Below, piece after piece: positions 610-39,581 of a stretch of DNA of 64,000 nucleotides. The stretch is from the sequence record OP114734.1. One strand, written 5' to 3'. This stretch comes from Escherichia phage vB_ESM-pEJ01. Under the pieces are notes generated by a model. That model made no database searches. It was not told the DNA's origin and saw nothing but the letters and a program-made list of their open reading frames with translations. The position numbers were made by a program, and so were the translations under genes. How positions within the stretch are numbered: the first letter of the stretch is position 1; the number at the start of each line of letters is the position of its first letter.

Positions 610-813
610 TTAACCGTATACGCGAAAGTATTCTACTGATCCGTCGCTATACTGTTTTACATTGAATGTATTCACACCATGATTATTTCTCATGATGACA
701 TATACACTGCGACGTTCATCGCTAAACGGCATAACTGGCGCTGGTTCAATATCAACACTAAAACCACGTTTAGCAAGTGCTTCGCCTAATTGCTTGATTT
801 TATCGGTAAACAT
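610..813 (-). CDS. hypothetical small protein
   Basis: 67 aa track ORF tightly packed between pseT and cd in the same orientation. Confidence 0.4.
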   Translation of the reverse strand: MFTDKIKQLGEALAKRGFSVDIEPAPVMPFSDERRSVYVIMRNNHGVNTFNVKQYSDGSVEYFRVYG

Positions 814-1712
814 TAAAAGTCTCCGTAGTTAACCTGAAAACATTCTACACCAATTGAGCGGTACATGTCAACCACTTGATCACGGTCATCTACCGCCAAA
901 ACAACATGATAACGCGGTGCAATTTCAGAGAAGAAAATCTCTTTCTTCACTTCATGATCAGGACGACGATCATTAGTTTCACGTTGAAAGTGATCACTCG
1001 GTTCAATACCCTGTTCACGCAACCATTGCAGAGTATCTTCTTCGCAAACATCCTCACGCCCTGAGCATGTAATGATACGATAACCATTATCACGATACAG
1101 TTTAAGCATTTCGATCACTTGCGGACGCGGTTTATCTTCTTTGACCTTTGTCCAGTCAAACGGATGACGACCGCCCTTATCCGCTAATGTTCCATCAATA
1201 TCAAAGATCACTGCCTTCGGCAGCATGGTATTCGGTTTGTATACTTCTTGACCCATATATTCCTGGGTCAGATAAAATTGGTTACGCAAATGAGAAAGTG
1301 GAATTGCTTTCTCGCCTCGATAGAAATTACGTTTCTTTAGTGTCTCAAATGATTCATTGAACACTTGTTCAGTATACACCGCGTTAAATTCTTTTGCAAG
1401 TTCTTTGTAGAATACACGATGTTTTTCTTTCAGGTTAGTATCAGAGATAATGATACTTAATCCGCGTGATAGAGTCTCACGAGCAATCATTCTCTGAATA
1501 GACTCTACCAGTTTTTCTTTTTCCTTAGTATACTTGTATTTCAAATGTGAGTCAACACCAAACAACATAAGACGAAGATCATCGCGATTCACATTACGAT
1601 AATTACTAAACCGTTTACACGTTTCCATAGCCCATGTAGTTTTACCGGACCCAGAACAACCAACGGTTAAAATCACTTCACATTTCGGCATTATTTCTCC
1701 TTCGGTTTGCAC
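813..1712 (-). CDS. pseT: polynucleotide 5'-kinase / 3'-phosphatase
   Basis: 299 aa; P-loop GCSGSGKTT at N-terminus, HAD motif DIDGTL, C-terminus VECFQVNYGDF matches remembered T4 Pnk end. Confidence 0.9.
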   Translation of the reverse strand: MQTEGEIMPKCEVILTVGCSGSGKTTWAMETCKRFSNYRNVNRDDLRLMLFGVDSHLKYKYTKEKEKLVESIQRMIARETLSRGLSIIISDTNLKEKHRVFYKELAKEFNAVYTEQVFNESFETLKKRNFYRGEKAIPLSHLRNQFYLTQEYMGQEVYKPNTMLPKAVIFDIDGTLADKGGRHPFDWTKVKEDKPRPQVIEMLKLYRDNGYRIITCSGREDVCEEDTLQWLREQGIEPSDHFQRETNDRRPDHEVKKEIFFSEIAPRYHVVLAVDDRDQVVDMYRSIGVECFQVNYGDF

Positions 1713-2507: not shown

Positions 2508-3677
2508 TTACCAATCAATCTTATCAGCCGGAATCAGTTTCTTATAATTCCGTAGATAGTAAGTTTTCATTGAATCCAGAATACGGTCATAATCAAGACC
2601 ATCAAATGCAATCATCAGACACATGAAAATATATGCTTGTGCATCACCATGTTTACGTGATTCGATAGTCGCATTTGATGCATATGTCTTTCTGTCTTCT
2701 CCCGCGTGTGCGTTATAAAATTCTGTTGCTGTCGTGAAGGCATTGCGAAGAATAGACCTGAATGCTTCCTCGAATAACTCGATTCGTTCCAGTGCTTCTG
2801 GTTCGCCTTCATATGCAGCACGCAAATCATCGGTTTCGCTTTCTACGACATAGTAGATCAGGTTATTAGGAAACATCGATGTGTTTTTAATGTTATGCAC
2901 ACCAATATACCATTCACTCTTCACCTTGAACAGTTGACCGTCTTTAGTGCGTGCAACAATTCCTTCGATACCTTCTGCGGTCCGAACTTCATCAAGAATA
3001 TTGCTAAAACGCGCTGAATCAACCTGTAGCGCATTTACCAGATGAGGACGTAGGATTGCGTCAGCAAATAGCATTTGATGCGGTACGTACTCTCCTGTGA
3101 CGTTATGGCGTACATTCAGAAGTGTTAGCGACGGTTCAGAATATTCTACAACAATTCGGTTGCTGGGTGCTGTATATTCAAAGTTGAAAGTATAATCAGA
3201 CCCAATATCAGCAATCTTAGCGCGTAGATCCGCATACTTCTCTGAATACAGAAGACCGTTTGCTCTCTCTGCCTGGCTTGAGTACAAGGCCGCTTTAGAC
3301 TTCAACTGAACATAGCCGGTATCAATGTATGTGCTTACTAGACTACCGTCCATTTTGTCCATGACCATTTCCACATCTTCCGGCTTAAAGCGAGCGCGAT
3401 CATTCTCACCCAAATTAAAAAACTTCTCCATAGGACGAGATGCAATGCGGACCGGACGACCTTTATCGTCAATTTCAAACATGATCCCGCGACACTCTAA
3501 CGCATCTGGTTTATTCCACATTTCAGGTTTGCTCAAGTACAGATAGCTAAAAATGCGCATACGGGTTTGCATCGCCGTAATTTCATCTTTGTAGTAGAAC
3601 GTATCAGATCCGTCACATAGTGCCATCAGATTTTTGAACAATACTAAAACTTTTTTGTTGTTTTCTTTTGTTGACAT
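2508..3677 (-). CDS. rnlA: RNA ligase 1
   Basis: 389 aa track ORF; strong colinear match to remembered T4 gp63 (LFKNLMALC, ECRGIMFE, RIASRPMEKFFNL); the track 5' end overlaps denA by 65 nt so the true start is probably downstream. Confidence 0.85.
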   Translation of the reverse strand: MSTKENNKKVLVLFKNLMALCDGSDTFYYKDEITAMQTRMRIFSYLYLSKPEMWNKPDALECRGIMFEIDDKGRPVRIASRPMEKFFNLGENDRARFKPEDVEMVMDKMDGSLVSTYIDTGYVQLKSKAALYSSQAERANGLLYSEKYADLRAKIADIGSDYTFNFEYTAPSNRIVVEYSEPSLTLLNVRHNVTGEYVPHQMLFADAILRPHLVNALQVDSARFSNILDEVRTAEGIEGIVARTKDGQLFKVKSEWYIGVHNIKNTSMFPNNLIYYVVESETDDLRAAYEGEPEALERIELFEEAFRSILRNAFTTATEFYNAHAGEDRKTYASNATIESRKHGDAQAYIFMCLMIAFDGLDYDRILDSMKTYYLRNYKKLIPADKIDW

Positions 3678-5420: not shown

Positions 5421-5897
5421 TTAATCATGACCGTGATTTGCAATATCCGCTCGCGTCTTATCTTTGTGATTTCCTACGTCAAAGACACGATAACCATTTT
5501 CACGCAAAACTTTAATCACTTCTGGGTTATCCTCAAAGACTCCGACAACTTCATCTTTATCAAAGGATTTAATTACCTCTAATTTGATGTGATAGTCTTT
5601 ACGGGAATCGGTACGGCCTCTCATAAAGATTTTATCAAAACACACCCCGTTAGAAATTAACCAATCAATTGTTTCCATGTAAGCATGTGAACTTCGTCCG
5701 GTGAGGATGTAAATCAAATGCCCGTTGTCGGAAAGAGCATTAATAACACGAATTACATCGTAAATGGGGGAATCTCCCCCACATGCCTTGTTATATTCGA
5801 TCCATGACTCGACTTTATCAAGATTTTCGGTTGGCATCTTTGCTAGTCGATGTGTTGGATCTGTGATCGTAAAATCTAAATCGACAAAATATATCAT
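5421..5897 (-). CDS. HAD-family phosphatase (putative nucleotidase)
   Basis: 158 aa; N-terminal DLDFTITD (DxDxT) HAD motif; sits just after nrdB. Confidence 0.55.
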   Translation of the reverse strand: MIYFVDLDFTITDPTHRLAKMPTENLDKVESWIEYNKACGGDSPIYDVIRVINALSDNGHLIYILTGRSSHAYMETIDWLISNGVCFDKIFMRGRTDSRKDYHIKLEVIKSFDKDEVVGVFEDNPEVIKVLRENGYRVFDVGNHKDKTRADIANHGHD

Positions 5898-7081
5898 AGA
5901 TATTTCCCGAATCGGTTGTAGTCATCGTCTGTTAAATCGGTATTAACCTGAGATACCAGATACATAATCTCTACTTCCTGCGCTGCATTCTGTACTTCGT
6001 CAGAGTTCAACCATTTACGCATCCACGGTAACGGATGACGACGAACACTAAACTGGCTTTTCAGTCCGGCAGCACGCATACGGGAATCTGCCAGGTATTC
6101 TACATAGGTTTTCAGAATTTCCGGCGACAGGTTAGGAATTGCCCCCATTGCGAATAAGTGATCTACCCATTCTTTTTCTTGCTCGACAACATCCAGAAAG
6201 ATTTTCGTTGCTTCGCCTTCAAGTTCTTCCGCAATCTGTTTCCACTCATCACCATCAGCCCCCGTTTGCCATTGACGAATAATGTATTGTGTGCCTTTTA
6301 AGTGAAGTTGTTCATCACGCGCAATAAATTTCATGATCTTCGCGTTACCTTCCAGTAAACCACGTTCGGCAAAGCTGAAAGTACATGCAAAGGACACATA
6401 AAAACGTATTGCTTCCAGTGCATTTACGCAGTGTGCACACAGATAAATCGAAGCCATCAGATCTCGTTTTGTATCTTCAAAAAATCTTCTTGCATCATCT
6501 AATTCTGTCTGATCGTCTCGTTCTTCCCAATAGTGGTGGAGAACTTCTTCTTCCCAATAGCGGAGATCTTCTTTTGCATTCTCATACTTACGAATCCAAT
6601 AGAGAACATCATCATAATATTTCCCGATAGATTCCGCTCGCTTCATGATAGCAGGGTTATCGATGATCTGGTCGAACTCACTAGCCGGATCAATGAAACA
6701 GTTACGCATAATGTGTGTATAGCTTCGGCTATGAATCGTTTCGCTGAATGTCCATGTTTGCAACCATGTATCGAGAGTTGGATCAGATACAATTGGACCA
6801 AATGCTGCGGACGGTGCGCGACCTTGAATAGAATCAAGTAATGTCTGATACTTCAAGTTTTCGGTAAAGAAACGCTTTTCAACGTCACCCATATTAAGAT
6901 ATTGAATGCGGTCGGTTGCAAGTGAAATCTCTTCTGGACGCCAGAAAAATGACAATTGCTTTTCGATCAGTTCTTCAAATACTTGATGACGCTGAATATC
7001 ATAGCGAGCGATACCCAACCCACTACCCAGAAACATTGGTTCGTTCATAATATCAACATGTTCGCGGTTAAATACGCTCAT
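5894..7081 (-). CDS. nrdB: ribonucleotide reductase beta subunit
   Basis: 395 aa; di-iron RNR small-subunit features; downstream of nrdA as in T4; SD GTGAGGTG. Confidence 0.9.
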   Translation of the reverse strand: MSVFNREHVDIMNEPMFLGSGLGIARYDIQRHQVFEELIEKQLSFFWRPEEISLATDRIQYLNMGDVEKRFFTENLKYQTLLDSIQGRAPSAAFGPIVSDPTLDTWLQTWTFSETIHSRSYTHIMRNCFIDPASEFDQIIDNPAIMKRAESIGKYYDDVLYWIRKYENAKEDLRYWEEEVLHHYWEERDDQTELDDARRFFEDTKRDLMASIYLCAHCVNALEAIRFYVSFACTFSFAERGLLEGNAKIMKFIARDEQLHLKGTQYIIRQWQTGADGDEWKQIAEELEGEATKIFLDVVEQEKEWVDHLFAMGAIPNLSPEILKTYVEYLADSRMRAAGLKSQFSVRRHPLPWMRKWLNSDEVQNAAQEVEIMYLVSQVNTDLTDDDYNRFGKYL

Positions 7082-7096
7082 TAATTCACCTCACTA

Positions 7097-7264
7097 TCAC
7101 TTTTTAACACAAAAGAACTTAGTATTTCTGTTTATTTCGCTATCCTGCTGCAATTCCTGCACAGCTTCAAAACAATTTTGATATGATGAAAACTCTACGC
7201 TGGTAACAGTTCCTTTATTATATACGCCTACGCTAACGGAAAGCAATAACCATAATGTAGCCAT
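7097..7264 (-). CDS. small protein with hydrophobic N-terminus (55 aa), not in ORF track
   Basis: ATG at 7264 overlaps stop of upstream paralog (TAATG); MATLWLLLSVSVGVY...; paralog of 7264..7437. Confidence 0.45.
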   Translation of the reverse strand: MATLWLLLSVSVGVYNKGTVTSVEFSSYQNCFEAVQELQQDSEINRNTKFFCVKK

Positions 7265-7437
7265 TAGTTCACCTTTTGTTTTTCAACACAGTACAGATTC
7301 ATAAAGCGTTTATTGTCTTCACGGATAATCTCGCGAGCTTTAACGCAATCCTGCTTTGTTGCAAACTCAATGCTTGACATATTTCCGTAATTATACATTG
7401 AATTGCTTATTGCAATCAATAACCATACAGTAGCCAT
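7264..7437 (-). CDS. small protein with hydrophobic N-terminus (57 aa), not in ORF track
   Basis: MATVWLLIAISNS...; shares SVEF...C...CV.K pattern with 7097..7264; TAATG coupling on both sides. Confidence 0.45.
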   Translation of the reverse strand: MATVWLLIAISNSMYNYGNMSSIEFATKQDCVKAREIIREDNKRFMNLYCVEKQKVN

Positions 7438-7634
7438 TATCCGACAACCTCAAAACATTTATCATCAGGAAGAATCGCCCATTCTACACCGTATTCATCC
7501 TCGACGTAGTAGCAAGTCCCATCATGTCGAGCATCATATTCATCACCAACAACAAAGCTATCAGCTAGTTCAAAATCTACAGCAACACATTTAATTTGGT
7601 CATAATAAAATCCTCACTTGTTTTTGATGGTTGT

Positions 7635-7663
7635 ATTATAGCGGGGATTTCTCCCCGCGTCAA
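7635..7663 (-). promoter_or_regulatory. sigma70-like promoter (TTGACG-17-TATAAT) with hairpin in spacer
   Basis: spacer is the hairpin GCGGGGAGAAATCCCCGC; immediately downstream of nrdA stop. Confidence 0.5.
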
Positions 7664-7671
7664 CACTTATT

Positions 7672-9915
7672 TTACAGCTTGCAAGATGAGCACTCGCTAG
7701 CGTCTTCCGTACCATCAGCACCATCACGCACGTTAGCGTAATACAGGGTTTTCAGACCGTAATATTGAGCAAACAACATATCATCTAACACATCAGCAAT
7801 ATCGACTTTACCAGTCTTATAAGTGCTTGGATCGTATGATGTATTGGAACTAATCGCCTGATCCACAAACTTCTGCATGATCGCTGCCAGTGTGAGATAA
7901 GGCTTGTTACCTTTCTTGATCAGTGTCCAAAGCAGGTCAATAACATCAGCATTATTCTCTACGTTCGGAATAACCTGATTAAATTGCCCTTCTTTCGATC
8001 CTTTAACCGATACAATCCCGCGAGGCGGTTCAATACCGTTTGTGCTGTTAGATACCTGAGAAGACGACTCACAAGGCATCAGCGCCGACAGTGTACTGTT
8101 ACGAATGCCATATTTTTTCAGGTCTTCGCGCAGTTCTTCCCAATCCATCTCATACACCGGATCAACCAGTTCATCTACTGTCTTTTTGTACCAGTCGATA
8201 GGAAGTTCACCGCGACCATAGCGTGTTTCGTGCATCAGTTCGCAAGCACCCTTCTCTTTAGCCAGTCGCACACTAGCCTTAATCAGAGCATATTGCAAGC
8301 GTTCAAACGTTTTATGCGTAAACTCGTTAGCGTCTTCATATGTGAAGAAATTATCTGCTAGATATGATGCAAAGTTAGTAACACCAATACCCAGAGAGCG
8401 ACGTTTTTTGGCTGTCAGAGCTTGTTCTACAGGATAATCCTGATAATCTAACAGGTTGTCAAGTGCACGCACCATAACCATAGCAATGCGTTCTACTTCT
8501 TCCATATTTTCGATATCGAAATTACCTAAAACATATGCTGCCAAAGTACATAGGCTGATCTCTGAATCATCACGCCCCATCGGTTTTGTTGGCAGCGCAA
8601 TTTCACAACACAGGTTAGATTGTTTAATCGGTGCTACATTACGAATAAACGCCCCGTGATTGTTCATGTTGTCTGTGAACGTTGGGTAGATTCGACCTGT
8701 GTTAAAACGTTCAATTGCCACCGCTAAAAACAGGTCTTCGGCTTTAACACGAGTTTTACGAACACTCGGATCTTTTTCCAGTTTTTCGTAAAGCTGGCGG
8801 AAACCTTCCTCATCTCGGAAGTATAGATCCCACAATAAGCCACCCGCAACATCTGGACTAAACAGAGTAATGTAATCCCGTTTAAGGAATCGCTCTACCA
8901 TCAGGTTATTAATCTGTACGCCGTAATCAAGATGACGAATGCGGTTATCTTCCACCCCCTTATTGTTCTTTAACACAATCAGACTTTCAAACTCTAAATG
9001 CCACATTGGGTAATAGAGAGTAGCTGCCCCGCCACGAATACCGCCTTGTGAGCATGACTTAACGGCAGTCTGAAAATGTTTCCAGAATGGGATAACGCCA
9101 GTATGACGAACTTCACCATGCCCGATCTTAGATCCTTCCGCGCGAATCATACCAGCATTGATACCGATACCAGCACGCTTGCTAATATACTTGATGATTG
9201 CATTTGCTGTTTCGTTGATGCCCTGCAATGAGTCATCACTTTCAATCACCACACACGAACTAAATTGGCGTGTTTGGGTACGCACACCTGCCATAATCGG
9301 AGTAGGCAGAGAGATTTGCTTATTCGCAACAGCATTATAAAAATCAATCACATGTTCAAGTCGATTTTCTGTCTCTTCTTGATGCAAGCACATACCGATC
9401 AGCATATACGCAAATTGCGGTGTTTCGATGATTTTCTTAGTGCTGCGATCCTGAACAAGATATTTCTCTTTTAACTGCATCGCACCAGCATAGGTCATTT
9501 TAAAATCAAGTTTATGGTCGATGAATTTCTCCAGATATTCCACTTCTTCACGGGAATATTTTTGCAGAATTTCGCGATCATATTTTCCGGTTGCAATATT
9601 ACGCTCAATATGGCTATAAAAATCAATAGGTTGGAATTGACCGTATACTGATTTACGAAGCGCGAACATTGCAAGGTTACTTGCTACATATTGATAATCA
9701 GGTGTTTCTACAGTAATGTTATCTGCGGCGACCTTAATCAATACTTTCTGGATATCATTGGTAGACATACCTTCTGTCAGAAGTGGTTCAACCATATCAA
9801 ACAATTCATATGGATCAACGTTATGACCTTCGGCTGCCGCTTCCAGAATTTTCATTACTTTTTCTTTTTCAAACGGAACAGTCAGACCGGAAGACTTAAC
9901 AACATTTTTAATCAT
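7672..9915 (-). CDS. nrdA: ribonucleotide reductase alpha subunit
   Basis: 747 aa; class I RNR large subunit with ATP-cone N-terminus; T4 NrdA-like length. Confidence 0.92.
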   Translation of the reverse strand: MIKNVVKSSGLTVPFEKEKVMKILEAAAEGHNVDPYELFDMVEPLLTEGMSTNDIQKVLIKVAADNITVETPDYQYVASNLAMFALRKSVYGQFQPIDFYSHIERNIATGKYDREILQKYSREEVEYLEKFIDHKLDFKMTYAGAMQLKEKYLVQDRSTKKIIETPQFAYMLIGMCLHQEETENRLEHVIDFYNAVANKQISLPTPIMAGVRTQTRQFSSCVVIESDDSLQGINETANAIIKYISKRAGIGINAGMIRAEGSKIGHGEVRHTGVIPFWKHFQTAVKSCSQGGIRGGAATLYYPMWHLEFESLIVLKNNKGVEDNRIRHLDYGVQINNLMVERFLKRDYITLFSPDVAGGLLWDLYFRDEEGFRQLYEKLEKDPSVRKTRVKAEDLFLAVAIERFNTGRIYPTFTDNMNNHGAFIRNVAPIKQSNLCCEIALPTKPMGRDDSEISLCTLAAYVLGNFDIENMEEVERIAMVMVRALDNLLDYQDYPVEQALTAKKRRSLGIGVTNFASYLADNFFTYEDANEFTHKTFERLQYALIKASVRLAKEKGACELMHETRYGRGELPIDWYKKTVDELVDPVYEMDWEELREDLKKYGIRNSTLSALMPCESSSQVSNSTNGIEPPRGIVSVKGSKEGQFNQVIPNVENNADVIDLLWTLIKKGNKPYLTLAAIMQKFVDQAISSNTSYDPSTYKTGKVDIADVLDDMLFAQYYGLKTLYYANVRDGADGTEDASECSSCKL

Positions 9916-39171: not shown

Positions 39172-39366
39172 TTATACATTTTCAATCACCCATTGCAGAT
39201 GGGCTTCTGCGTCAACCAGTTCAGCGCGGCTTTTCTCTAAGCACTTGCTGTATTCTTTACGTTCCCAATCAGCAATTTCGTTTTTCAGGACTTCTTCATA
39301 GTAAGCAATTACGCCTTTCAGGTCTGAAACTTTACGGCTTGCCAGTTCGATGTAATGGTTACGCAT
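39172..39366 (-). CDS. hypothetical small protein
   Basis: 64 aa track ORF. Confidence 0.4.
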   Translation of the reverse strand: MRNHYIELASRKVSDLKGVIAYYEEVLKNEIADWERKEYSKCLEKSRAELVDAEAHLQWVIENV

Positions 39367-39535
39367 TTTGATTCTCCTTTGTTACTAGATAACGAATTTG
39401 GTCTTGCATTGCGATCAGTTCCCAGCGTGCTACTTTCATCATGGAAACCGACTCTTTGAACATAATATTAGCCTTTTCCTTATTCCCTGTCAAGTAGATT
39501 TCTGCAATTTTCACAAAATTTTTGAGTTTCTTCAT
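39359..39535 (-). CDS. possible small ORF (58 aa), not in ORF track
   Basis: ATG at 39535; stop overlaps start of 39172..39366; weak SD, so uncertain. Confidence 0.25.
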   Translation of the reverse strand: MKKLKNFVKIAEIYLTGNKEKANIMFKESVSMMKVARWELIAMQDQIRYLVTKENQNA

Positions 39536-39581
39536 TCTTAAACGGTTTCATATAAGTCAACCTTTTGTTTTCGATGGGGAC

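What the first reader, a model, noticed from the sequence alone, without database searches (positions are those of the whole stretch)
7097..7610. Tandem paralogous small hydrophobic-N-terminus genes and a start-less frame between nrdA and nrdB
Two overlapping-stop/start genes (57 and 55 aa, MAT[VL]WLL...SVEF...C...CV.K) lie in the nrdA-nrdB spacer. Upstream of them a ~60-codon open frame ends in the same TAATG coupling but has no ATG/GTG/TTG start; the only well-positioned ATG (after SD GTGAGGA) is in the -1 frame and stops after 8 codons. This is either a frameshifted pseudogene, a sequencing indel in a homopolymer, or a gene needing a programmed frameshift.
Basis: seen in the sequence. Interest (0 to 1): 0.35.

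Follow-up and report, generated by a model that had tools for sequence, protein, structure and literature searches.

The report
One-base deletion kills small phage gene
The "start-less" frame is a small, dispensable gene of an RB49-like coliphage that has lost one A from a run of four, sitting beside two intact duplicated small genes in a known kind of phage accessory-gene cassette, so it is ordinary.

Summary
The window is an RB49-like T4-type coliphage (Krischvirus). All the genes concerned lie on the minus strand. Between nrdA (7672..9915) and nrdB (5894..7081) are two intact tandem paralogs of 57 aa (7264..7437) and 55 aa (7097..7264). They share 38% identity (E=6e-16) and are the orthologs of RB49 ORF232 and ORF231.

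The open frame without a start codon is the ortholog of RB49 ORF233 (55 aa). Every relative examined reads ATGACCAAATTAAAATGT. The window reads ...TTAAATGT, so one A is missing from an A4 run (7590..7592). The normal ATG (7603) therefore gives MTKLNVLL-stop, and the other 50 codons are stranded in the -1 frame.

A programmed frameshift is not supported. There is no slippery heptamer, and no relative shares the two-frame layout.

The deletion is probably a real mutation, not a sequencing error. Against RB49, 11 of 14 net frame-changing indels fall in the 4.3% of aligned DNA that is intergenic. ORF233 is also broken in at least seven independent ways in related genomes.

The three genes follow a published kind of promoter/stem-loop element (PeSL). 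Their functions are unknown. ORF233 is predicted to be an acidic SH3-like barrel, and the paralogs a soluble beta-beta-alpha-beta fold with two invariant cysteines.

Interest is low.

The parts
7672..9915 (-). nrdA, the ribonucleotide reductase large subunit (747 aa). It is the upstream neighbour and its stop codon TAA lies at 7674..7672.
   Evidence: ORF list. RB49 annotation of the homologous stretch.
7635..7663 (-). PeSL-type element. It comprises a sigma-70 -35 box TTGACG (7663..7658), a 7-bp G/C stem-loop GCGGGGA-GAAA-TCCCCGC (7658..7641) filling the 17-nt spacer, and a -10 box TATAAT (7640..7635).
   Evidence: Promoter scan scores 11 of 12. RNA fold shows the 7-bp hairpin. The element is invariant across window, RB49, kvi, FL04 and FL37. 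The same stretch is annotated as a promoter in GEC-3S and as a terminator in Makalu_001. It matches the PeSL description in PMC2839356.
7611..7617 (-). Shine-Dalgarno sequence GTGAGGA of the ORF233 ortholog, 7 nt upstream of its ATG.
   Evidence: Sequence.
7577..7603 (-). Truncated product of the ORF233 start: ATG (7603..7601), then MTKLNVLL, then TAG (7579..7577). The first four codons are those of the intact gene.
   Evidence: Translation. Alignment to RB49 and kvi.
7590..7592 (-). Site of the lesion. The run is AAA here and AAAA in all relatives examined, a 1-nt deletion at codons 4-5 of ORF233.
   Evidence: Alignment A1. BLAST gap list: del_in_window of 1 at window 7590.
7437..7592 (-). 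Stranded remainder of the ORF233 ortholog (KCVAVDFELADSF...KCFEVVG then stop). It has no start codon in its frame and ends in the TAATG overlap with the next gene.
   Evidence: Translation. tblastn with RB49p233. phrog_16302 at E=3.6e-41 for the repaired protein.
7264..7437 (-). Ortholog of RB49 ORF232 (57 aa), intact. It is the upstream tandem paralog and belongs to phrog_5579.
   Evidence: pN/pS 0.06 over 14 distinct sequences.
7097..7264 (-). Ortholog of RB49 ORF231 (55 aa), intact. It is the downstream tandem paralog and belongs to phrog_5579.
   Evidence: pN/pS 0.30 over 15 distinct sequences.
5894..7081 (-). nrdB, the ribonucleotide reductase small subunit (395 aa). It is the downstream neighbour and starts 16 nt after the ORF231 stop.
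   Evidence: ORF list. RB49 annotation.

Best explanation
The nrdA-nrdB spacer of this RB49-like coliphage carries a three-gene cassette of small accessory genes, the orthologs of RB49 ORF233, ORF232 and ORF231. A PeSL-type element (early promoter plus stem-loop) lies just upstream of the cassette. The genes are chained by one-base stop/start overlaps (TAATG).

In this genome the first gene has lost one A from an A4 run at codons 4-5. Ribosomes that start at its normal SD/ATG stop after 8 codons. The remaining 50 codons are stranded in the -1 frame with no start codon. I read this as a strain-specific loss-of-function allele, a young pseudogene, of a dispensable gene. It is not a recoding site.

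The two downstream paralogs remain intact. ORF232 has its own GAGG 10 nt upstream of its ATG, so it can probably still be translated without coupling to ORF233.

Shown: the lesion, the orthology, the absence of the lesion in relatives, and the repeated independent loss of this gene. Inferred: that the deletion is in the phage and not in the assembly, that the gene is dispensable, and that ORF232 and ORF231 are still expressed.
For: - The window is a Krischvirus. The spacer is 99.1% identical to RB49, at 641 nt against 642 nt.
- Alignment shows ATTAAAATG in RB49, kvi, FL04 and FL37 against ATTAAATG in the window.
- RB49p233 is found in 58 GenBank records by tblastn. The A4 run is present in all 19 loci translated and all 10 contigs.
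- The A3 allele is absent from IMG/VR and from JGI metagenome contigs.
- ORF233 looks like a real gene. pN/pS is 0.34, and 12 of 24 variable sites fall at third codon positions. AlphaFold2 folds it into a five-strand barrel at pLDDT 84.
- Relatives carry independent inactivations: T4->T5 (FL04, FL38, kaaroe), a 2-nt deletion (FL37, FL20), a +1 insertion (AV108), stop at codon 41 (JEP8), stop at codon 12 (G37-3, ELT3) and stop at codon 31 (metagenome contig L034).
- Over 60.2 kb aligned to RB49 there are 14 net frame-changing indel events. Eleven lie in the 4.3% that is intergenic (binomial P~3e-13). The three inside CDSs all hit small hypothetical ORFs. Indels in this assembly therefore look filtered by selection, as real differences would.
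- The PeSL anatomy matches the published description.
Against: - The A3 allele is a singleton, seen in no other genome, and it sits in a homopolymer. That is where sequencing and assembly errors occur. Without reads, an error cannot be excluded.
- Dispensability of ORF233 is inferred from broken alleles in deposited genomes of viable phages. It has not been shown by a knock-out.
- Some of those other broken alleles could themselves be assembly errors. The three nonsense alleles are unlikely to be.
Confidence: 0.7

Rival explanations
1. The missing A is a sequencing or assembly error in a short homopolymer. The real phage has an intact 55-codon ORF233.
For: - The lesion is a 1-nt length change in a homopolymer.
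- It is unique to this sequence among all genomes and contigs checked.
- Several other differences from RB49 are also homopolymer length changes.
Against: - Those other homopolymer indels are almost all intergenic: 11 of 14 net frame-changing events lie in 4.3% of the DNA. About 91% of homopolymer runs of 4 or more lie in coding DNA (P~1e-9). Random error would mostly have broken large essential genes, and none is broken.
- A run of 4 is short for platform-specific homopolymer error (general knowledge).
- The gene is demonstrably broken in other ways in other genomes, including by substitutions.
Confidence: 0.24
2. ORF233 is expressed here by a programmed -1 ribosomal frameshift, or by transcriptional slippage, within the first 8 codons.
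For: - A well-placed SD/ATG opens a short frame that overlaps a long open -1 frame.
- The -1 frame is open all the way back past the ATG.
Against: - ATG ACC AAA TTA AAT GTG TTG CTG TAG contains no X_XXY_YYZ heptamer in register (read from the sequence).
- The A run is only 3 nt, far shorter than the runs that support RNA polymerase slippage (general knowledge).
- No relative has the two-frame layout. All those with an intact gene encode it in one frame. Programmed sites are normally conserved.
- The fold of the region is dominated by the upstream PeSL hairpin, not by a downstream stimulator.
Confidence: 0.02
3. A slightly shortened ORF233 protein is still made from the in-frame AUU codon at 7595..7593. 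It would start (M)KCVAVDF..., only 4 residues shorter than the intact protein.
For: ATT AAA TGT lies in the stranded frame just before the conserved KCVAVDF. AUU is a known rare bacterial start codon, as in infC (general knowledge).
Against: - The SD GAGGA ends 15 nt upstream of this AUU, well beyond the usual spacing.
- The strong AUG at 7603 competes for the same ribosomes.
- AUU initiates at a small fraction of AUG efficiency (general knowledge).
- At best this gives a strong hypomorph.
Confidence: 0.04

Closest known systems
RB49 ORF233 / ORF232 / ORF231 (RB49p233-231; NP_891804.1, NP_891803.1, NP_891802.1) and their orthologs in Phi1, JSE, GEC-3S and other Krischvirus genomes
   Same: Same position between nrdA and nrdB, same order, and same TAATG overlaps. 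ORF232 and ORF231 have exactly the RB49 protein sequences. The stranded frame is identical to RB49p233 codons 6-55.
   Different: In the window ORF233 lacks one A of the A4 run and is therefore not a translatable gene.
PeSL (promoter-early stem-loop) ORFan cassettes of RB49 and phi1 (Arbiol et al. 2010, PMC2839356; Comeau et al. 2014, PMC4122927)
   Same: The layout runs as follows: stop codon of the upstream gene, AT-rich stretch, sigma-70 -35 and -10 boxes with a polyG/polyC stem-loop between them, then the SD and start of a small gene of unknown function. The locus is plastic in relatives, as PeSL loci are described to be. Examples are a homing endonuclease in AV108, a DNA methylase in metagenome contig L033, and loss of one paralog in G37-3 and FL20.
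   Different: This particular PeSL is not named in the text I could search: the terms nrdA and ORF231-233 do not occur there. There is no second PeSL between ORF231 and nrdB. Promoter and terminator activity were not tested here.
T4 nrdA/nrdB intergenic insertion site (mobE free-standing homing endonuclease; Edgell et al. 2010, PMC2988022)
   Same: The same spacer between the two reductase subunit genes is used as a landing place for non-essential DNA. The inserted gene uses a one-base stop/start overlap (UAAUGA) with its upstream neighbour.
   Different: The window carries three small ORFan genes there, not an HNH endonuclease. Of the relatives examined, only AV108 has a homing endonuclease annotated in the spacer.
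Gp54 of phage Bas11, a small non-essential beta-barrel protein that triggers the CapRelSJ46 defence (Zhang et al. 2024, PMC11578894; PDB 9axb)

Membership tests
RB49 ORF233 orthologs (phrog_16302) | Full-length sequence match to the family profile | tested here: met
   The repaired protein matches phrog_16302 over positions 1-55 of 55 at E=3.6e-41. The stranded frame is identical to RB49p233 residues 6-55.
RB49 ORF233 orthologs (phrog_16302) | Same genomic position: after nrdA and the PeSL, overlapping ORF232 in TAATG | tested here: met
RB49 ORF233 orthologs (phrog_16302) | Uninterrupted ATG-initiated reading frame of about 55 codons | tested here: not met
   A 1-nt deletion at 7590..7592 means the ATG frame stops after 8 codons. 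The window therefore holds a disrupted allele, not a functional member.
phrog_5579 (ORF231/ORF232 small two-cysteine proteins) | Profile match plus the conserved W5, F25 and two Cys | tested here: met
   Both window ORFs match at E~6e-24. In the 33-sequence alignment L7, C31 and C50 are invariant, and W5 and F25 are conserved in at least 90%. A profile search found 53 cluster representatives at E<=1e-3.
PeSL (promoter-early stem-loop) element | Near-consensus sigma-70 -35 and -10 boxes downstream of the upstream gene's stop codon | tested here: met
   TTGACG, a 17-nt spacer and TATAAT score 11 of 12, and the -35 box starts 8 nt after the nrdA stop.
PeSL (promoter-early stem-loop) element | Stable G/C-tract stem-loop in or next to the promoter, followed by the SD and start of a small ORFan | tested here: met
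   [quoted passage not shown] SD and ATG lie 18-32 nt downstream. This is the commonest published sub-class.
PeSL (promoter-early stem-loop) element | Promoter and terminator/attenuator activity | not testable with these tools
   This needs reporter fusions or transcript mapping. The published tests were on other PeSLs.
Programmed -1 ribosomal frameshift site | Slippery heptamer X_XXY_YYZ in the zero frame before the zero-frame stop | tested here: not met
   ATG ACC AAA TTA AAT GTG TTG CTG TAG has none in register.
Programmed -1 ribosomal frameshift site | Two-frame arrangement conserved in related genomes | tested here: not met
   Relatives with an intact gene encode it in a single frame with A4.
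Programmed -1 ribosomal frameshift site | Stimulatory structure downstream of the shift site, or an SD-like element upstream of it | tested here: inconclusive
   The minimum-free-energy fold of 7560..7680 is dominated by the PeSL hairpin. The weak long-range pairing around the start shows no sign of being a stimulator.
Gp54(Bas11)-like defence trigger | Sequence or clear structural homology to Gp54 | tested here: inconclusive
Gp54(Bas11)-like defence trigger | Activates CapRelSJ46 or another defence system | not testable with these tools
   This needs co-expression or plaque assays.
   The maximum Kyte-Doolittle 19-residue mean is 0.61 for ORF232 and 1.07 for ORF231, against the usual threshold of about 1.6. 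Across the family the n-region is uncharged, or in one member acidic. AlphaFold2 models residues 4-10 as a beta-strand, at pLDDT 70.

The most novel reading that the evidence does not exclude
ORF233 may be lost repeatedly for a reason, rather than by neutral decay. At least seven independent inactivating events occur in a 168-nt gene across Krischvirus genomes. The gene encodes an acidic SH3-like mini-barrel that resembles Bas11 Gp54. It could be a small accessory protein that one host defence system senses, or that is costly in some hosts. On that reading, null alleles such as the window's A3 deletion would be escape mutants under positive selection.
Probability: 0.1. Interest if true: 0.5.

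Novelty: already known. Interest (0 to 1): 0.1.

Why it matters
It matters little for biology at large.

For annotation, the stretch 7437..7603 should be labelled as a disrupted ortholog of RB49 ORF233. It should not be called a new gene or a recoding site.

The survey also gave two modest by-products:
- ORF233 is one of the more frequently broken genes in this phage genus. That marks it as dispensable and as a candidate for a host-interaction or defence-related role.
- The ORF231/232 pair belongs to an uncurated family of small two-cysteine proteins, with 53 cluster representatives and no Pfam or NCBIfam model. The two copies recombine with each other to give single hybrid copies.

Tried and rejected
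- **Curated families.** Pfam, NCBIfam and PADLOC gave nothing significant for any of the three proteins (Pfam on 33 family members). The best was DUF7244 at E=0.03, below its cut-off.
- **RNA families.** Rfam on 6900..7900 gave only one sub-threshold chance hit.
- **Word-indexed protein searches.** These returned only close Krischvirus relatives.
- **Genomic contexts of distant ORF231/232 family members.** They sit in generic clusters of small phage ORFs, beside a GIY-YIG endonuclease and a Dam methylase. No functional association emerged.
- **PDB sequence searches.** Both family profiles gave no hit better than E=0.5.
- **The A3 allele elsewhere.** Exact-pattern scans of IMG/VR and JGI metagenomes found none.
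- **Unavailable resources.** The afdb50 fold library was not available. The RB49 genome paper (PMC135041) is not held.
- **Readings rejected.** A membrane-anchor or signal-peptide reading of the paralog N-termini. A programmed frameshift and transcriptional slippage (see rivals). The antisense plus-strand ORF 7403..7594 as a gene: the variable sites fit the minus-strand codon phase.

Full report
**What is in the sequence.**

All relevant genes are on the minus strand. nrdA is 7672..9915 and nrdB is 5894..7081. Between them lie a 57-aa ORF (7264..7437) and a 55-aa ORF (7097..7264). They share the base at 7264 in a TAATG stop/start overlap.

Upstream, the frame running from 7613 down to the TAA at 7439..7437 is open for 58 codons. 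It holds no ATG, GTG or TTG, and it ends in the same TAATG overlap.

A Shine-Dalgarno sequence GTGAGGA (7617..7611) lies 7 nt before an ATG at 7603..7601. That ATG is in a different frame and reads MTKLNVLL then TAG at 7579..7577.

**Identity of the window and of the three frames.**

The spacer is 99.1% identical to Escherichia phage RB49. It matches 58 records, all Krischvirus (RB49-like T4-type coliphages). The 641-nt query aligns to 642 nt in most of them. The best match over 25 kb of the window is 97.4%, so this exact genome is not in the phage collection.

RB49 annotates three hypothetical genes here:
- RB49p233, 55 aa
- RB49p232, 57 aa
- RB49p231, 55 aa

Phi1 calls them ORF233, ORF232 and ORF231.

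The alignment settles the matter. RB49, kvi, FL04 and FL37 read ATGACCAAATTAAAATGTGTT. The window reads ATGACCAAATTAAATGTGTT, so one A of an A4 run is missing at window 7590..7592 (also the BLAST gap list). With the base present the gene reads MTKLKCVAVDFELADSF...KCFEVVG. With the missing base restored, the protein matches phrog_16302 end to end at E=3.6e-41.

The two downstream ORFs both match phrog_5579 at E~6e-24. They are paralogs of each other: BLASTP E=6e-16, 38% identity, with 60% nucleotide identity.

**Are these real genes?**

Pairwise Nei-Gojobori estimates were made across the Krischvirus sequences I fetched:

| Gene | pN/pS | Distinct sequences |
|---|---|---|
| ORF232 | 0.06 | 14 |
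| ORF231 | 0.30 | 15 |
| ORF233 (intact copies) | 0.34 | 9 |

In all three, variable sites are concentrated at third codon positions of the minus-strand frames. All three therefore behave as coding sequence. ORF232 is under strong constraint and the other two are more relaxed.

**Programmed frameshift?**

A -1 shift would be needed within ATG ACC AAA TTA AAT GTG TTG CTG TAG. There is no X_XXY_YYZ heptamer in register. A run of three A is far too short for transcriptional slippage (general knowledge).

The two-frame layout is also not conserved. The A4 run is present in every genome or contig inspected:
- 19 loci
- 10 contigs
- 2 IMG/VR contigs

The A3 allele was not found in IMG/VR or in JGI metagenome contigs. 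I therefore reject recoding.

The in-frame AUU at 7595..7593 could in principle start a protein only four residues shorter. However, it lies 15 nt from the SD and must compete with the AUG. At best it would give trace expression (inference from general knowledge).

**Real mutation or sequencing error?**

This cannot be settled without reads, but two lines of evidence favour a real mutation.

The first is where the other indels fall. I aligned the whole window to RB49, giving 60.2 kb aligned of which 95.7% is coding by RB49's annotation. I grouped gaps lying within 45 nt of each other. That leaves 14 net frame-changing events, of which 11 lie in the 4.3% that is intergenic.
- Under a uniform placement, seeing 3 or fewer of 14 in coding DNA has P~3e-13.
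- Weighting by where homopolymer runs of 4 or more lie (91% in coding DNA), P~1e-9.

The three coding events all fall in small hypothetical ORFs:
- ORF233.
- The last codons of the RB49p268 ortholog.
- A 2-nt deletion in the RB49p004 ortholog. There an alternative ATG restores a 58-aa ORF with the same C-terminal part.

No large or essential gene is broken. That is the pattern of differences filtered by selection, not of random assembly noise.

The second line is that ORF233 is broken in relatives in at least six other independent ways:
- T4->T5 at codons 11-12 (FL04, FL38, kaaroe)
- A 2-nt deletion at codon 31 (FL37, FL20)
- A +1 insertion near codon 40 (AV108)
- A stop at codon 41 (JEP8)
- A stop at codon 12 (G37-3, ELT3)
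- A stop at codon 31 (metagenome contig L034)

In addition, GEC-3S carries an in-frame 7-codon duplication.

Nonsense substitutions are not homopolymer artefacts. At least 9 of the 58 GenBank records carry a broken ORF233. That is a lower bound, because tblastn does not flag stop codons in records I did not inspect. The gene evidently tolerates loss, so one more null allele is unsurprising.

**The setting.**

Directly after the nrdA stop comes TTGACG, then GCGGGGAGAAATCCCCGC, then TATAAT (the G of the -35 box is also the first base of the stem). The promoter match is 11 of 12. The 17-nt spacer is filled by a 7-bp G/C hairpin with a GAAA loop. The element is invariant among the five aligned genomes. 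It is annotated as a promoter in GEC-3S and as a terminator in Makalu_001.

This is the anatomy of the PeSL (promoter-early stem-loop) elements described in RB49 and phi1. Those are strong sigma-70-type early promoters fused to terminator hairpins. They are usually placed in front of small genes of unknown function and are associated with insertion, deletion and replacement of those genes (PMC2839356). That paper's text does not mention this particular locus.

The spacer is plastic in relatives:
- AV108 has a homing endonuclease in place of the paralogs.
- Metagenome contig L033 has a DNA methylase between nrdA and ORF233.
- G37-3 and FL20 have a single hybrid paralog. Its first 10 nt are ORF232-type and the rest is ORF231-type, with the crossover in an 11-nt identical stretch.
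- A 44-aa hybrid with a different junction also exists (P0004).

In T4 the same nrdA/nrdB spacer hosts the mobE homing endonuclease, which is likewise joined to nrdA by a UAAUGA overlap (PMC2988022).

**What the proteins might be.**

None of the three matches Pfam, NCBIfam or PADLOC.

Gp54(Bas11) is a non-essential small phage protein that triggers the CapRelSJ46 defence (PMC11578894). There is no sequence similarity between it and ORF233. This is a lead, not a classification.

The ORF231/232 family has 53 cluster representatives at E<=1e-3 in a full HMMER scan, nearly all 50-65 aa. The three much longer repetitive proteins in that list (P0019, P0035, P0050) look spurious to me; I inspected the first two. 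L7 and two Cys are invariant, and W5 and F25 nearly so.

The hydrophobic N-terminus is only about 9-11 residues long and uncharged. It is below any transmembrane threshold. It is modelled as the first strand of a beta-beta-alpha-beta fold at pLDDT 70. I therefore read these as soluble mini-proteins, though with only modest confidence.

Distant family members sit in generic small-ORF clusters of phage contigs. One diverged ORF231 ortholog is 47% identical yet sits next to an NrdB that is 93% identical. That shows how fast this position evolves.

**Verdict.**

The finding is real and correctly described, and its explanation is ordinary. It is a strain-specific one-base deletion in a dispensable ORFan within a known type of phage accessory cassette.

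My estimates for the rival readings are:
- Genuine null allele: about 0.7
- Assembly error: about 0.24
- Recoding or an alternative start: together about 0.06

The only mildly interesting residue is the unusually frequent, independent loss of ORF233 across the genus.

Noticed in passing
window 39359..39560 (-), indel near 39508: The RB49p004 ortholog differs from RB49 by a 2-nt deletion in an A6 run. RB49's ATG-frame (MKPFKNEETQKFCE...) stops early here. A second ATG 16 nt downstream, in the other frame, opens a 58-aa ORF (MKKLKNFVKIAEIYLTGNK...) that rejoins the same C-terminal sequence. This looks like a start-codon switch that rescues the gene.
   Followed up: partly
window 6521..6547 (within nrdB, minus strand): A 27-nt in-frame insertion relative to RB49, flanked by the repeat TTCTTCCCAA, makes NrdB 395 aa instead of 386 aa. 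Phage Skers also has a 1188-nt nrdB, so this is a shared length variant.
   Followed up: partly
window, minus strand: 7635, 12965, 17004, 17560, 21780, 37012, 38970, 39952, 54073, 56801, 58827: There are eleven exact TTGAC-N15-19-TATAAT sites, all on the minus strand, against 0.37 expected by chance. These are the early-promoter and PeSL-type sites of this phage. I did not check which of them carry stem-loops.
   Followed up: no
window 7390..7419 (-), inside ORF232: A second sigma-70-like site, TTGATT-18-TATAAT (10 of 12), lies within codons 7-16 of ORF232. It could be an internal promoter feeding ORF231 and nrdB, or simply a chance match.
   Followed up: no
L017 (G37-3) 768..935; L020 (FL20) 766..933; protein P0004: These carry single-copy hybrid genes made from the 5' end of ORF232 and the body of ORF231, with the crossover in an 11-nt identical stretch. 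A 44-aa hybrid with a different junction also exists. The tandem paralogs therefore recombine with each other.
   Followed up: yes
L018 (AV108) 839..1366; L033 126..965: Other genes are inserted in the same nrdA-nrdB spacer in relatives. AV108 has a homing endonuclease replacing the paralogs. A pig-gut metagenome contig has a DNA methylase (PF00145) between nrdA and ORF233.
   Followed up: partly
L022 (Enterobacter phage SDFMU_EhYP, Koutsourovirus) 2644..2802: There is an unannotated homolog of the ORF231/232 family (49% identity by tblastn, E=0.02) in the early region of an unrelated podovirus, between an AAA ATPase gene and the DNA polymerase gene.
   Followed up: no
L031 (Logan SRR10499554 contig) 1374..1545: ORF231 is itself disrupted in one metagenomic Krischvirus contig, by a stop at codon 39 and a shortened 3' end. 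ORF233 is therefore not the only gene of the cassette that can be lost.
   Followed up: no
L024 37..204 (protein P0017): A diverged ORF231 ortholog, 26 of 55 residues identical, sits directly upstream of an NrdB that is 93% identical to the window's. The small gene evolves much faster than its neighbour.
   Followed up: partly
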